From a virus (lineage: Duplodnaviria; Heunggongvirae; Uroviricota; Caudoviricetes), in the IMG/VR virus record IMGVR_UViG_3300037466_002980, positions 96,001 to 160,000 of that record: a stretch of DNA of 64,000 nt. The stretch is one strand, 5' to 3'. A program made the translations under genes and the position numbers. Below the pieces are notes generated by a model. It searched no databases. It was not told the origin of the DNA and was given only the letters and a program-made list of their open reading frames with translations. The stretch's first letter is position 1; each line of letters begins with the position of its first letter. Shown here piece by piece: positions 47,909 to 62,735 of the stretch.

Positions 47909-49345
47909 TTAGAAATCGTATCGTTCTATCATGACAGTTTTAAGCATAATGCTTATTGGTGTCATTTCATCACCACCGAGTATCGACTTTACAATACTCG
48001 GACTGAATCCCGATACTAATGCCGCACCAGTCTTATTGTAAGTAACTGGACTATTTCCAGAACGTCCATTAAGATTCCAGAACACAATCTGTGGTGCCTT
48101 ATATCCAGCAGTCGCATAGGACTGTTCGATCATTTCCATGGCACTAACACTCAGGTTAGTTCCACCTGCATGATAATGAGAACCATACACGCTTGGAGTA
48201 CACCCGACAGAAATACAGTTATCAAATTCCATATCCGATAAGATCAATAGCTTTGTTGGCATTTGATCATTTGGCATCTTATTCTTAACAGCGGTATCAA
48301 GAATTAACCTAAACACAGCCTGAATATCGGTATTCATGCCCCAATCAGCTCTCTGCATCTGATTATATCTATCCTGTAAAGATCCTGTTGTCTTTACAAT
48401 AGAAGGCTTACCACTAAAGGTAACAAACGAATCCTTAAAGATTCCGCCCATACGTTCCGATGTATAAAGTCCTAAAGAAATTGCGACATCCATTGCTGTC
48501 ACAGATCCCGATACCTTAACACTAGACATAGAACCAGAAACGTCAACTACCGATAAGATGTTTTCATTAGAACCTTCTAGATAGTTTGGCAATGCCTTCC
48601 ATTGTTCATTTGCAACCGTAGTATCACCATTCACTAAGGAACGAATAACATCATACGGATATGCAACCGAAGCGTTAACCTTTGCATCACCAGAGACTAA
48701 TTTTGCCTTATAGGCAGAATAACCAGTTGCATCATGTTTTGTGAAGGCTTTCTGATAACGTGCAGCGGCAATCGAAGGAACATGTTCATAGTTGATGTTG
48801 CTCCAATCGTTTGCACACATTTTCTGTTCAACAGTATTCGAAAGTCCAACGAGAAGCTTACGGAAGCTCTTTGGAGAATACTTCATATAAGAACGAATCT
48901 TACCTGCGATTGCGCCCTGTCTTGGCATCCATTTTGCACATAAACCATCTTTTGCATTCAATGCTGATACGATCATATGCAGAGCATCATTTTCAAGAGA
49001 TGTACCGAAGGCAATTAAAACATCGTCCCAACGTCCAATTTCGGGAATCTTCACTAGAACCTTAGATGCCAAGGTAGCATCAGTTCTGATCAGATAACCA
49101 AAGAGATCACGGAAAGTTTTTCTTTCACCGCTTCCACCACGGGCATCACGAGTCCACTGTAGGATACGCACAGCAACTTCGGAATCTTCCATTAATGCAC
49201 CCGCGAAGGTGTTGGTAATATCCTTATCACGGCTTGCACCAGCAAGGAAGAAAAGATCGACGTTCTTGTTCAAAGAGGTCGCATTGGTAACAGCACCGTT
49301 AGAGGTAACTGCAGAAGCATTTGTTGTTTCAAATAATGTGGTCAT
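47909..49345 (-). CDS. DUF2828 family (TROVE/Ro-like helical + vWA) protein
   Basis: TRDARGGSGER, GRWDD, CAKWMPR, VEQKMC..W..INYEHVPS, vWA MIDAS VDVSGSM, LSDMEFD, VFWNL. Confidence 0.85.
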   Translation of the reverse strand: MTTLFETTNASAVTSNGAVTNATSLNKNVDLFFLAGASRDKDITNTFAGALMEDSEVAVRILQWTRDARGGSGERKTFRDLFGYLIRTDATLASKVLVKIPEIGRWDDVLIAFGTSLENDALHMIVSALNAKDGLCAKWMPRQGAIAGKIRSYMKYSPKSFRKLLVGLSNTVEQKMCANDWSNINYEHVPSIAAARYQKAFTKHDATGYSAYKAKLVSGDAKVNASVAYPYDVIRSLVNGDTTVANEQWKALPNYLEGSNENILSVVDVSGSMSSVKVSGSVTAMDVAISLGLYTSERMGGIFKDSFVTFSGKPSIVKTTGSLQDRYNQMQRADWGMNTDIQAVFRLILDTAVKNKMPNDQMPTKLLILSDMEFDNCISVGCTPSVYGSHYHAGGTNLSVSAMEMIEQSYATAGYKAPQIVFWNLNGRSGNSPVTYNKTGAALVSGFSPSIVKSILGGDEMTPISIMLKTVMIERYDF

Positions 49346-49358
49346 TTTTATTCCTTTC

Positions 49359-49508
49359 AGAATCAGATTGGTTTTATGCTAAAATTATGCGGAAATGATT
49401 CTTTAAAATCTATCAGATTAGCTTTTGAACAAATTTTACTTCCTCATTCATGAAGGATTTCCTGGAAAAACCAGGAGAGTCTGATTTATGGATTGCTGTA
49501 ACTAATCT
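49359..49508 (-). ncRNA. Two stem-closed RNA elements in DUF2828 leader
   Basis: AGATTAGT-TACAGCAA...GCTAATCT and AGAATCA-TTTCCGCA...TGATTCT, after TTGACA-N17-TACACT (49518-49546). Confidence 0.5.
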
Positions 49509-49562
49509 TAATAATTAAGTGTAACATTTTCAATGAAACCTGTCAAGAGGACTTTACAGGTT

Positions 49563-50381
49563 TTAATAAGAACCTATTACTGTTTTTCCAGTAAGGTTTT
49601 CTTGATATTTTATTTCTCTTTCGAGAAAATCGACTGCACGTTTCATTAATCTCTTATAATCCTTAGATTTTTCTTTCTCGGGAAAAAGATTAGAAATTCT
49701 ATTAATTTCAAGCTGATGTTTTAATTTATCGAATATTGATCTTTTATCAATTTTTTCTTGATCTTGAAATTCTTTCTTAATAATAGGTACCATTCCATAT
49801 AATGCTTGAACAAATCTAGCATTTATTTCGGATGGTTGAGCAAGATATTCATTGTTATCGAAATACGAAGTATTTGTTTCGCTTCGTTTAGATTGTTTCG
49901 GTGTAGAGTATCTCTTACTTGCATTTGCTTTGAAATTAGATTTAAAATCATCCAAAGCATGTCTTAATTCGTGGGCAATAATGGTACTTAAAAGTTTTGT
50001 TCCGATGTAATCTTTATTTAACACCATTGTTTTACTATCAGAGAACCAAAATCCCATAATATCTTTATTTCCGGGAAGTGTAATAGCCTCTGCCTCATGA
50101 TTTTTTTGGTATTGTCTAATACCGTAATCGGATTGAACTTGAATGTTAATAGGATTTAAAATATATAATGGAGTATCAAAAAGTTCTCCAATAGTACCAA
50201 TTTCTTCAGGAGCATCATAATCTCCTTCAAAATCAAATTCATCGTCTGGTTCAATTTCATCATCTGTCCAAAATTCATTTAGATCCATCTTTGAAAGATA
50301 GTGAGCTATTTCTCGGGCAAGAGAAATAATTGCTCTGTCTTCGTTTACTGATTCTGAAACAAATAATTCAATTAAATGCAT
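49563..50381 (-). CDS. HEXXH metallopeptidase-like late protein
   Basis: IIAHELRHALD, YLAQPSEINAR; MHLIELF..E N-terminus. Confidence 0.7.
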   Translation of the reverse strand: MHLIELFVSESVNEDRAIISLAREIAHYLSKMDLNEFWTDDEIEPDDEFDFEGDYDAPEEIGTIGELFDTPLYILNPINIQVQSDYGIRQYQKNHEAEAITLPGNKDIMGFWFSDSKTMVLNKDYIGTKLLSTIIAHELRHALDDFKSNFKANASKRYSTPKQSKRSETNTSYFDNNEYLAQPSEINARFVQALYGMVPIIKKEFQDQEKIDKRSIFDKLKHQLEINRISNLFPEKEKSKDYKRLMKRAVDFLEREIKYQENLTGKTVIGSY

Positions 50382-50382
50382 C

Positions 50383-50985
50383 TTAACCCCAGACTAGATC
50401 TGCACCATTTTTTTGACACCAATCACATAATTTTAAAAGACTATCTATATAACGGTCAACTTGCGAATTCGTTCTTCCACCTACATACATCTTGCCACTA
50501 CGCCCAATTTTATCCATTCCATTGTCGTCTTTATATCTTCTCATTTCTCCACCAAATTCTTGTGGATCAGCGAGTAATGAATTGTTATTGTTTTTCAATT
50601 TTATCAGTTTTCGACGTAATTCTGGAAGCTGACTATTAGGAACTGATCCGACTAATTCTGATGAATCTAATCCTAATGCATTTAGAATTGCCACTGCATT
50701 CATATTTGTGACATTTAATTCTGGATAATCAGAAACCCATGTCTTATTGGTTTTCTTACCATCGCACATTCTGCAAACCCAATCTTGGGCAGGATAATGT
50801 TTTCCTTCATAGTCATATGCATCACTATGTTCCATTCCTGTACCATTACATATATCGCATGGTTCGTCCACGTAACGACCCCATTCCATTCCGGAATAAA
50901 GTCCATCTGGATAATTCGGATCATCTTTAATTAATTTCGCAGCACCGAAATCAACAGATTCGTTTAGAATTTCACTAAGCCTCAT
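50383..50985 (-). CDS. Late protein with DnaJ-type Zn motifs
   Basis: CDICNGTG, CRMCDGK; start MRLSEILNE after GGAG; late motif 51003. Confidence 0.7.
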   Translation of the reverse strand: MRLSEILNESVDFGAAKLIKDDPNYPDGLYSGMEWGRYVDEPCDICNGTGMEHSDAYDYEGKHYPAQDWVCRMCDGKKTNKTWVSDYPELNVTNMNAVAILNALGLDSSELVGSVPNSQLPELRRKLIKLKNNNNSLLADPQEFGGEMRRYKDDNGMDKIGRSGKMYVGGRTNSQVDRYIDSLLKLCDWCQKNGADLVWG

Positions 50986-51022
50986 AGCATCTCCGATTAT
51001 GCTATTTATCAAAAAACTAGTG

Positions 51023-61904: not shown

Positions 61905-62230
61905 TAGAGTTCCTTTCCCCAATGCATGCCTTGACAAATTTCTTTTGCTAATGCTAAGACTTTTTCCTTATCTTCTTCATCAATCCAACTCATTACTGTC
62001 GAATACTTAACATGAAGTAAGGCATAATATGCAGAGGAATAGGCATATTGCCCATTATTGAGCTTTTTCTGATTTGTAATTGGAATAAAAGATTTGCGAA
62101 GGCGCGAAATACAACCTTCTTTACCTTGTTCCTTAACAAGGGCTCTATAAATGCATAGAGCAGCAATATCTTCTTTAGTAATCAATCTCTTGGCAGCAAG
62201 TGCCTTCCAGTTTTGACGAATATCTTTCAT
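61904..62230 (-). CDS. Hypothetical protein
   Basis: Start MKDIRQNWK after AAGGAAG; FIPITN..KL.NG. Confidence 0.65.
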   Translation of the reverse strand: MKDIRQNWKALAAKRLITKEDIAALCIYRALVKEQGKEGCISRLRKSFIPITNQKKLNNGQYAYSSAYYALLHVKYSTVMSWIDEEDKEKVLALAKEICQGMHWGKEL

Positions 62231-62318
62231 AATATCTCTTCCTTTAAAAAAATTTAAGTTTCTACAAAATTGCAATGCGAAAATTCTCTTAAATTTCTTA
62301 AGAAGAGTCAAAATAAAC

Positions 62319-62546
62319 CTACATCATAGTGTTTTTCTCCTGTTTGCTTTTGTTAATTTCATCAAATGTATTTTTAACCTGAACTAATGCCAATAAAAAA
62401 TCTTTTTCAGACAATGTATCGACTATTTCGTTTATTGAAATATGATCTATATTAAATGCATACAATTTCCGAAAATTACGTAAAAGAGAGGGATTATGAA
62501 GTCCAAGGATCATCAAATCTTCTTTTAGCTTTTCACGGTTATCCAT
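62319..62546 (-). CDS. Hypothetical protein
   Basis: 75-aa ORF. Confidence 0.55.
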   Translation of the reverse strand: MDNREKLKEDLMILGLHNPSLLRNFRKLYAFNIDHISINEIVDTLSEKDFLLALVQVKNTFDEINKSKQEKNTMM

Positions 62547-62552
62547 AATATA

Positions 62553-62623
62553 TTTATGAATTACGTAGAACCTTCGGTTTCAAAGACTGCTGTGCATATA
62601 CATTATTATACGTAATTCATAAA
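62553..62623 (-). ncRNA. Stem-closed element with perfect 15-bp inverted repeat
   Basis: TTTATGAATTACGTA...TACGTAATTCATAAA enclosing CACAGCA and AACC-GAA-GGTT. Confidence 0.5.
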
Positions 62624-62637
62624 CATATTCATGTTTA

Positions 62638-62735
62638 TGGTAGTGATTTAAAACAGTAAGATTTGAACTTACACACCCTAATAAGGCATCCTGCCGGAAT
62701 GCGTCATACCTATTGCGCCATGTTTTATCAACTAC
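62638..62735 (-). ncRNA. tRNA-like RNA with extended acceptor and shrunken anticodon arm
   Basis: D arm GCG..CGC, ATTC-CGGCA-GGAT, variable arm, GTAAG-TTCAAAT-CTTAC, ~14-bp bulged acceptor ending ACCA. Confidence 0.65.

What the first reader, a model, noticed from the sequence alone, without database searches (positions are those of the whole stretch)
47909..62735. Candidate RNA-repair / tRNA-mimic system: DUF2828 TROVE-vWA protein, RNA ligase, two Pth2 and a suite of anticodon-less tRNA mimics
Seen: within 15 kb lie a DUF2828 helical+vWA protein with its own structured leader RNAs, an Rnl2/DRB0094-type RNA ligase, two different Pth2-fold hydrolases, three tRNA-shaped RNAs lacking a usable anticodon (60243, 61465, 62638), a 15-bp stem-closed element, and non-canonical tRNAs. 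Elsewhere in the window are a cyclic-phosphate-processing receiver domain, a KTSC domain, NADAR and a DEDD exonuclease. Known: bacterial Ro60/TROVE proteins partner tRNA-mimicking Y RNAs and co-occur with RNA ligases, and hosts attack phage translation with anticodon nucleases. Inference: the phage encodes a ribonucleoprotein kit in which tRNA mimics act as Y-RNA-like partners or anticodon-nuclease decoys, while the ligase and Pth2 enzymes repair tRNA and recycle drop-off peptidyl-tRNA.
Basis: partly seen in the sequence, partly recalled or inferred. Interest (0 to 1): 0.85.

Follow-up and report, generated by a model that had tools for sequence, protein, structure and literature searches.

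The report
Phage Ro60-like protein with handle RNAs

Summary
47909-49345(-) encodes a DUF2828/DUF7788 protein whose model matches full-length Ro60 structures and keeps a complete metal-binding site. 51023-52108(-) is an NgrRnl/DraRnl-type (Rnl5) RNA ligase. 54545-54934(-) is a canonical Pth2, and 61587-61937(-) is only a weak second Pth2-like candidate.

The real Y-RNA-like candidates are the two leader modules at 49355-49511. Each is a 7-bp AGA...TCT stem followed by UUACAGCAA or UUUCCGCA. In about 20 sister phages the same leader slot carries a circularly permuted tRNA domain of YrlA topology. The same handle marks DUF2828 genes only about 50% identical. Rfam's Dictyostelium Class I RNA model places its four best genome hits on these modules.

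The three named "tRNA mimics" are not one suite:
- A (60240-60337) is a covarying pseudoknotted 5' leader.
- B (61465-61551) is an orphan with no homologue found.
- C (62648-62727) is a degenerate tRNA.
- D (62551-62625) belongs to a covarying stem-closed family with an anticodon-arm-like hairpin.

None carries the handle. The ligase and Pth2 lie near DUF2828 only in this clade, so the "repair kit" remains inference. This scan had already found the DUF2828/ACAGCA pairing on at least eight other genomes.

The parts
47875..47888 (-). Terminator-like hairpin plus T run after the DUF2828 gene
   Evidence: Consensus scan.
47909..49345 (-). DUF2828/DUF7788 protein, 478 aa, predicted Ro60 fold (helical-repeat ring plus vWA domain with metal-binding site)
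   Evidence: Pfam. AF2 model pLDDT 83.6, pTM 0.84. The top 12 Foldseek PDB hits are all Ro60/TROVE, E 1.5e-7 to 1.8e-4. D268, S270, S272, T339 and D371 are invariant in 46 homologues.
49355..49405 (-). Handle module without cargo (AGAATCA / TGATTCT stem, UUUCCGCA box); its 3' strand abuts the ribosome-binding site
   Evidence: R1 model 32.8 bits. The same position and design occur in all sister phages.
49411..49511 (-). Handle module 1 (AGATTAG / CTAATCT stem, UUACAGCAA box, two internal hairpins)
   Evidence: R1 29.3 bits. Rfam Dicty_Class_I_RNA aligns end to end, 17.5 bits.
49518..49546 (-). Sigma-70-like promoter TTGACA-17-TACACT with TG extension
   Evidence: TTGACA is conserved upstream of the leaders of relatives.
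49563..50381 (-). Conserved upstream neighbour with an HExxH motif, function unknown
   Evidence: Present in 21 of 23 close loci. Weak DUF6782 hit. Motif seen.
51023..52108 (-). Rnl5-type (NgrRnl/DraRnl) RNA ligase with N-terminal OB domain
54545..54934 (-). Canonical Pth2 peptidyl-tRNA hydrolase
   Evidence: PF01981 87.4 bits; 86.5 bits in the six-frame search.
60240..60337 (-). Element A: conserved pseudoknotted leader RNA, 13 nt upstream of the ATG at 60227; not tRNA-shaped
   Evidence: Five homologues, 22 pairs, 92.7% paired, 12 pairs with changes on both sides, 0 of 500 shuffles. No Rfam match.
61384..61460 (-). tRNA with CUA anticodon (amber suppressor type)
   Evidence: Conserved at this slot in 8 of 9 relatives.
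61465..61551 (-). Element B: orphan tRNA-like RNA (T arm, bulged acceptor, long GCGA-capped arm) between the promoter and tRNA(CUA)
   Evidence: Fold; ARAGORN only at a relaxed threshold. Absent at this slot in G001, G002, G006, G009 and G012. No tRNA, R1 or other Rfam hit.
61562..61590 (-). Promoter-like TTGACA-17-TAAAAT driving B plus tRNA(CUA)
   Evidence: 11 of 12 matches. The equivalent TTGACA is present in relatives.
61587..61937 (-). Divergent Pth2-like candidate
   Evidence: for; against. Conserved at 60-69% identity in 9 relatives.
62551..62625 (-). Element D: stem-closed three-way-junction RNA with a 16-bp closing stem and an anticodon-arm-like hairpin (loop CUUUGAA)
   Evidence: 15 family members in 10 phages. 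25 pairs, 94.3% paired, 13 with changes on both sides, 0 of 500 shuffles.
62640..62740 (-). Element C: degenerate class-II-like tRNA (core 62648-62727) inside an extended closing stem
   Evidence: RF00005 33.8 bits. ARAGORN Ala(GGC) with C33. Extended stem. Comparable T-arm elements inside closing stems occur in G002, G003, G012 and G013.

Best explanation
The stretch is part of a conserved tRNA and RNA-maintenance island of an uncultivated 363-kb phage. Its core is one transcription unit: promoter, two handle RNA modules, a Ro60-fold DUF2828 protein, terminator.

I propose that the protein binds the handle (the 7-bp AGA...TCT stem plus the single-stranded UUACAGCAA or UUUCCGCA box), as Ro60 binds the stem of Y RNAs. 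The variable cargo held by the handle would then bring in other factors or substrates. That cargo is a YrlA-like permuted tRNA domain in sister phages and at other places in this genome. The empty module touching the ribosome-binding site would let the protein repress its own translation.

The Rnl5 ligase, Pth2 and the Pth2-like gene are plausible companions for coping with cleaved tRNA, but they are linked here only by clade-specific synteny. Elements A to D are separate small RNAs of the tRNA array. A is a cis-acting leader. D is a stem-closed anticodon-arm mimic. B and C are aberrant tRNA-like RNAs.

Shown: the fold, the RNA families, their covariation and their adjacency to the gene. Inferred: binding, autoregulation and any role in repair.
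For: - Protein fold: Ro60 fold with an intact metal-binding site.
- Handle pairing: 41 of 78 box occurrences in DUF2828 leaders have the complement of the preceding 7-mer downstream, against 5-7 for shifted controls. A loose version of the pattern is expected about 10.6 times in both strands of the shuffled genome.
- Placement: with model R1, 29 of 39 hits in 971 kb lie within 1.6 kb upstream of DUF2828 on its strand, 19 of them not in the training set.
- Distant genes: the same handle precedes or follows DUF2828 genes only 48-53% identical (L080, L052, L070, L031, L065, L042).
- YrlA likeness: Rfam YrlA matches the tRNA-like cargo in L019 at 27.8 bits, E 9e-4.
- Class I likeness: Rfam Class I RNA puts its top four genome hits on handle modules.
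- Transcription signals: promoter and terminator flank the unit.
- Precedent: phage Ro60 with Y-like RNAs encoded upstream is established for canonical TROVE proteins (PMC4201824, PMC12135203).
Against: - No binding or expression data exist; no RNA run holds this phage.
- Many DUF2828 genes of T4-like phages show no handle within the searched flanks.
- Handle modules also lie 17-33 kb away in the tRNA array, so they could serve another protein.
- In Dictyostelium the only direct Class I RNA binder named in PMC7919456 is an RRM protein, not a Ro-like one.
- All Rfam scores are below the gathering thresholds.
Confidence: 0.6

Rival explanations
1. One reading: the anticodon-less tRNA mimics at 60243, 61465 and 62638 (and the 15-bp element) are the Y-RNA-like partners of DUF2828 or decoys for host anticodon nucleases. 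The ligase and the Pth2 enzymes then repair tRNA and recycle peptidyl-tRNA.
For: - C is tRNA-like (33.8 bits).
- D has a covarying 5-bp hairpin whose 7-nt loop reads CUUUGAA in 6 of 8 close members, like a UUG anticodon loop.
- All of these RNAs lie in a tRNA array beside a ligase and Pth2.
- Jumbo-phage ligase, TROVE and PTH2 sets have been read as RNA repair before (PMC7824862).
Against: - None of A to D is hit by the handle model or by the strict pattern.
- A is a pseudoknotted leader.
- B has no homologue at its slot.
- The ligase and Pth2 are absent near 57 of 57 distant DUF2828 genes.
Confidence: 0.15
2. The handle modules are processing or regulatory signals of phage transcripts, or partners of a different protein. 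On this view their position before DUF2828 reflects leader regulation only, and DUF2828 acts on other RNAs.
For: - Modules also occur far from the gene, inside the tRNA array.
- An empty module overlaps the ribosome-binding region.
- Class I RNAs bind an RRM protein in Dictyostelium (PMC7919456).
Against: - The handle is strongly concentrated next to DUF2828 in several lineages.
- The cargo has YrlA topology, which is known only from Ro60 partners (PMC4201824).
Confidence: 0.2
3. B and C are decaying or rearranged tRNA genes with no function of their own. The stem-closed units (D and its neighbours) are cassettes that are gained and lost, with long stems that serve RNase III-type excision or cassette mobility rather than protein binding.
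For: - B is an orphan.
- C has an A/U-rich acceptor, C33 and a weak D arm.
- The number and kind of units between the two flanking genes differ in every relative.
- The ends TGTTTAT / ATAAACA are conserved, and one unit's 3' end can pair with the next unit's 5' end.
Against: - All stems of B are intact.
- The internal helices of D covary, which argues for a selected RNA fold rather than mere inverted ends.
Confidence: 0.3

Closest known systems
Ro60 (Rsr/TROVE) with Y RNAs, especially YrlA of bacteria and phages (Rfam RF02553; PMC4201824; Thermus phage phiLo Ro60 with Yrl1/Yrl2, PMC12135203)
   Same: - Ring of helical repeats plus a vWA domain with a metal-binding site.
- Partner-RNA genes lie directly upstream on the same strand.
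- The cargo in sister phages is a permuted tRNA domain (T arm, closed acceptor hairpin, D arm).
   Different: - The protein matches Pfam DUF2828/DUF7788, not TROVE; identity to solved Ro60 proteins is 12-16%.
- The RNA is closed by a 7-bp stem plus an ACAGCAA box instead of the long bulged Ro-binding helix.
- YrlA scores are far below the gathering threshold (27.8 against 69 bits).
- The window's own leader modules have no tRNA domain.
Dictyostelium Class I RNAs (Rfam RF01414; PMC7919456)
   Same: - A short stem joins the 5' and 3' ends.
- A conserved box, UUACAGCAA, follows the 5' strand directly.
- The remainder is variable.
- The ends read GAU...AUCUG (alignment).
   Different: - Class I RNAs are reported as unique to dictyostelids, with their own promoter element.
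- Scores here are 17.5-23.9 bits against a gathering score of 41.5.
- The phage versions are longer and carry tRNA-derived cargo.
Jumbo-phage RNA-repair gene sets (Iyer et al. 2021, PMC7824862)
   Same: [quoted passage not shown]
   Different: That survey names no DUF2828-type protein, no handle RNA family, and none of the RNAs A to D.
NgrRnl / DraRnl (Rnl5) nick-sealing RNA ligases (PDB 5COT)
   Same: Full-length match at E 5.6e-66, an N-terminal OB domain and the KxDG lysine motif.
   Different: Phage-encoded; the substrate is unknown.

Membership tests
Ro60 / TROVE | Ring of helical repeats followed by a vWA domain with a metal-binding (MIDAS) site | tested here: met
   The model matches 12 Ro60 structures over about 510-560 columns, TM 0.45-0.61. 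The DxSxS, T and D residues are invariant.
Ro60 / TROVE | Sequence match to the TROVE family | tested here: not met
   Pfam reports only DUF2828 and DUF7788. The profile hits TROVE chains only at E 0.0032, over the metal-site segment.
Ro60 / TROVE | Binds Y RNA | not testable with these tools
   No RNA runs are available.
YrlA (RF02553) | Reaches the Rfam gathering score of 69 bits | tested here: not met
   L019 27.8 bits. Own genome best 39.5 bits, outside the window. Inside the window the only hit is 19.3 bits, across B's T arm and the D arm of the next tRNA, a tandem-tRNA artefact.
YrlA (RF02553) | Permuted tRNA-like domain on a closing stem | tested here: inconclusive
   Met in 20 sister phages. 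Absent from the window's own leader.
Dictyostelium Class I RNA (RF01414) | Short terminal stem plus an adjacent conserved 11-nt box | tested here: met
   End-to-end alignment. The top four genome hits are handle modules.
Dictyostelium Class I RNA (RF01414) | Reaches the gathering score of 41.5 bits | tested here: not met
   17.5-23.9 bits.
tRNA (RF00005) | Model score at or above 29 bits with a standard anticodon loop | tested here: inconclusive
   C scores 33.8 bits but has C33, a weak D arm and no CCA after the discriminator. A and B give no hit.
Pth2 (PF01981) | Score above the 23-bit cut-off | tested here: met
   54545-54934: 87.4 bits.
Pth2 (PF01981) | Score above the cut-off for the second candidate, 61587-61937 | tested here: not met
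   13.9 bits and hhalign probability 0.7%. Language-model neighbours are all PTH2 clusters, which is a lead only.
Rnl5 RNA ligase | N-terminal OB domain plus adenylyltransferase domain with KxDG | tested here: met

The most novel reading that the evidence does not exclude
DUF2828 proteins and handle RNAs form a second Ro/Y-type particle. It would be built like the unexplained Class I RNAs of social amoebae and carry interchangeable tRNA-derived cargo. In this phage it would present damaged or decoy tRNA parts to the neighbouring ligase and Pth2 enzymes. The stem-closed D RNAs would act alongside it as anticodon-arm decoys.
Probability: 0.25. Interest if true: 0.85.

Novelty: new variant of a known kind. 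Interest (0 to 1): 0.6.

Why it matters
Ro60 and its Y RNAs are a long-studied RNA-surveillance particle whose bacterial and phage roles are still unclear. A divergent Ro-shaped family was found here in 710 phage records. It has its own RNA signature, and that offers a tractable second system in which binding rules and cargo can be tested. The likeness to Class I RNAs, whose function has been open for two decades, suggests a protein partner to look for.

For this window specifically, the work separates real from apparent tRNA mimicry. It also adds two further covarying, uncatalogued RNA families (A and D) in phage tRNA arrays.

Tried and rejected
- Megablast of the region against phage records gave no match.
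- Single-sequence AF2 of DUF2828 was useless, pLDDT 33.7.
- Single-sequence folds of A, B, C and the leader were not better than shuffles; only comparison with relatives resolved them.
- The protein at 54934-55299 was tested as the second Pth2 and rejected.
- Rad, the T5 anti-retron protein, was checked as a possible DUF2828 relative. It is a 189-aa TOPRIM-type protein and is unrelated.
- Searches with single small proteins for more loci found few.
- The 14-mer scan for A returned mostly chance matches; two further true members emerged after filtering, one from that scan (L137) and one in a locus already held (L097).
- Rfam at lax thresholds gives nothing credible for A, B or D.
- No RNA holder is listed for this phage, so expression could not be examined.
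- A full-text search for DUF2828 found only plant and tardigrade mentions.
- An integron attC-like reading of D's ends was considered and dropped, because the end motifs do not fit.
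Full report
**Setting.** The window is bases 96001-160000 of a 362,810-bp IMG/VR phage record with terminal repeats. It has 46 ARAGORN tRNA/tmRNA calls. All genes in 47-64 kb are on the minus strand. DNA of this phage occurs in rhizosphere and soil metagenomes, and no RNA run is listed. 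About 23 related contigs carry a DUF2828 protein 65-77% identical. Gene order is conserved from the zinc-ribbon gene at 62776-63663 down to DUF2828.

**Proteins.**
- The gene at 47909-49345(-) matches DUF7788 and DUF2828.
- With a 46-sequence alignment, AlphaFold gives pLDDT 83.6 and pTM 0.84.
- The twelve best PDB matches are all full-length Ro60 proteins: Thermus phage phiLo, Deinococcus Rsr, Xenopus and human. E-values run from 1.5e-7 to 1.8e-4 and TM-scores from 0.45 to 0.61.
- The metal-site residues D268, S270, S272, T339 and D371 are invariant.
- tblastn finds relatives in 710 phage records from many hosts.
- The ligase at 51023-52108(-) matches Naegleria NgrRnl over its whole length (E 5.6e-66). 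It has the N-terminal OB domain and KMDG, so it is Rnl5/DraRnl-type.
- 54545-54934(-) is a canonical Pth2.
- The only other PTH2 signal in the genome is 61587-61937(-), at 13.9 bits. Language-model neighbours are all PTH2 clusters, but the profile-profile comparison fails. I treat this as a lead.
- Neither the ligase nor Pth2 lies within 10 kb of any of 57 more distant DUF2828 genes. Their linkage is therefore inherited synteny and gives no independent support for a joint function.

**The leader RNAs.** Between a TTGACA-17-TACACT promoter (49546-49518) and the start codon lie two modules.
- Each module has a 7-bp stem that begins AGA and ends TCT. The 5' strand is followed at once by UUACAGCAA (module 1) or UUUCCGCA (module 2). 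The 3' strand of module 2 touches the ribosome-binding site.
- The leaders of about 20 sister phages are built of the same modules with different stems: TTAG/CTAA, ATCA/TGAT, TCGT/GCGA, TTCG/CGAA, GTGA/TCAC and others. Their cargo also differs: a conserved CCUUUCYGGAGGGGAAAG domain, a domain of about 250 nt, nothing, or a circularly permuted tRNA domain.
- Defined by the box alone, 41 of 78 occurrences have the complement of the preceding 7-mer downstream, against 5-7 for shifted 7-mers.
- RNAalifold recovers the handle, T arm and D arm, with 7 of 15 pairs showing compensatory change.
- A covariance model of the tRNA-bearing modules (R1) finds 39 hits in 971 kb. All lie on the DUF2828 strand, and 29 lie within 1.6 kb upstream of the gene; 19 of those were not in the training set.
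- Handles also accompany DUF2828 genes only about 50% identical: L080, L052, L070, L031, L065 and L042.
- Rfam's YrlA model matches the cargo of L019 at 27.8 bits, E 9e-4.
- Following a lead from earlier notes of this scan, I tested Rfam's Dictyostelium Class I RNA model. It aligns end to end with module 1. Its four best hits in the whole genome are handle modules that R1 had found independently. The published description is a 6-bp terminal stem, an 11-nt box after its 5' strand and a variable remainder (PMC7919456), and this fits. All scores are below the gathering thresholds, so this is a resemblance, not a membership.

**The named 'tRNA mimics'.** R1 hits the window only at the two leader modules; none of A to D is hit.
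- **A (60240-60337)** has homologues in four relatives. It folds into four helices, one of them a pseudoknot. Of 22 pairs, 92.7% are paired, and 12 pairs change on both sides against 5.3 in shuffles (0 of 500); slid controls reach at most 49%. It ends 13 nt before an ATG and precedes different genes in different phages. It is a cis leader, not a tRNA mimic.
- **B (61465-61551)** sits between a strong promoter-like site and tRNA(CUA). In five relatives the promoter is followed directly by the tRNA, and in G003 and G008 other structured inserts fill the slot. No model detects B.
- **C** scores 33.8 bits as a tRNA but has C33, a weak D arm, a long variable arm and an extra closing stem.
- **D** is a member of a family of at least 15 units in 10 phages, arranged in tandem between the same two genes. 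A 16-bp closing stem, a short second helix with a variable insert, and a 5-bp hairpin all covary (94.3% paired, 13 double-sided pairs, 0 of 500). The hairpin loop reads CUUUGAA in 6 of 8 close members.

**Reading.** The best-supported model is a Ro60-like particle whose RNA partners are the handle RNAs, with probable autoregulation through the leader. The repair-kit and decoy ideas remain possible but are not supported by anything beyond neighbourhood. Phage Ro60 with Y-like RNAs is known for canonical TROVE proteins (PMC4201824, PMC12135203), and ligase/TROVE/PTH2 sets in jumbo phages have been discussed (PMC7824862). I found no paper on DUF2828 or on this RNA family. This scan had already reported the same pairing on other genomes.

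Noticed in passing
window 61384-61460; L099:9273-9596(-); L106:1200-1520(+); L105 about 1438-1509: tRNA(CUA) is kept at the same slot in 8 of 9 relatives. One relative adds a UUA-anticodon tRNA and another has a 4-base CUAA call. The Pth2-like gene just upstream carries an in-frame TAG in two relatives, which suggests real amber read-through.
   Followed up: partly
L098:10995-11500, L103:40-320, L100:17220-17500, L104, L105, L106 (zone between the homologues of 62776-63663 and 61904-62311): Relatives hold 2-5 tandem stem-closed RNAs here. They include a second family with conserved GCAUAAAGAAUGCGC and GCCUGGCAAGAGC blocks. The number and type of units differ in every phage.
   Followed up: partly
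window 62620-62650: The sequence CATAAACA after element C can pair with the TGTTTATG that begins D. In arrays, each unit's end is complementary to the next unit's start, so alternative pairings are possible. The 3' ends also resemble a TATAAATA late-promoter box.
   Followed up: no
L013:2233-2483, L016:9407-9655, L020:1777-2027, L080:9450-9688: A domain of about 250 nt, closed by the same kind of handle (AGAGTGA...TCACTCT plus ACAGCAA), lies further upstream of DUF2828 in several phages.
   Followed up: no
window 49563-50381: An HExxH-motif protein of unknown function is the constant upstream neighbour of the DUF2828 leader, in 21 of 23 close loci.
   Followed up: partly
window 60509-60901: A 130-aa protein with GTQ and GDCIGAD motifs that look like a SLOG/DUF2493-type nucleotide-binding domain. 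This was judged by eye only; Pfam gave no hit.
   Followed up: no
window 36168-36264: Rfam calls a 97-nt tRNA (55.8 bits) that ARAGORN does not report; it may carry an insertion.
   Followed up: no
L052:1525-2392: A phage with a DUF2828 protein only 51% identical has five handle modules in a row before the gene. A separate pattern hit just downstream (L052:2005-2102) has the handle replacing the acceptor stem of an otherwise ordinary D, anticodon and T arm set.
   Followed up: partly
window 55437-56039 and 56281-56937: These are two paralogous genes of phrog_31287, function unknown, duplicated to varying extents in relatives.
   Followed up: no
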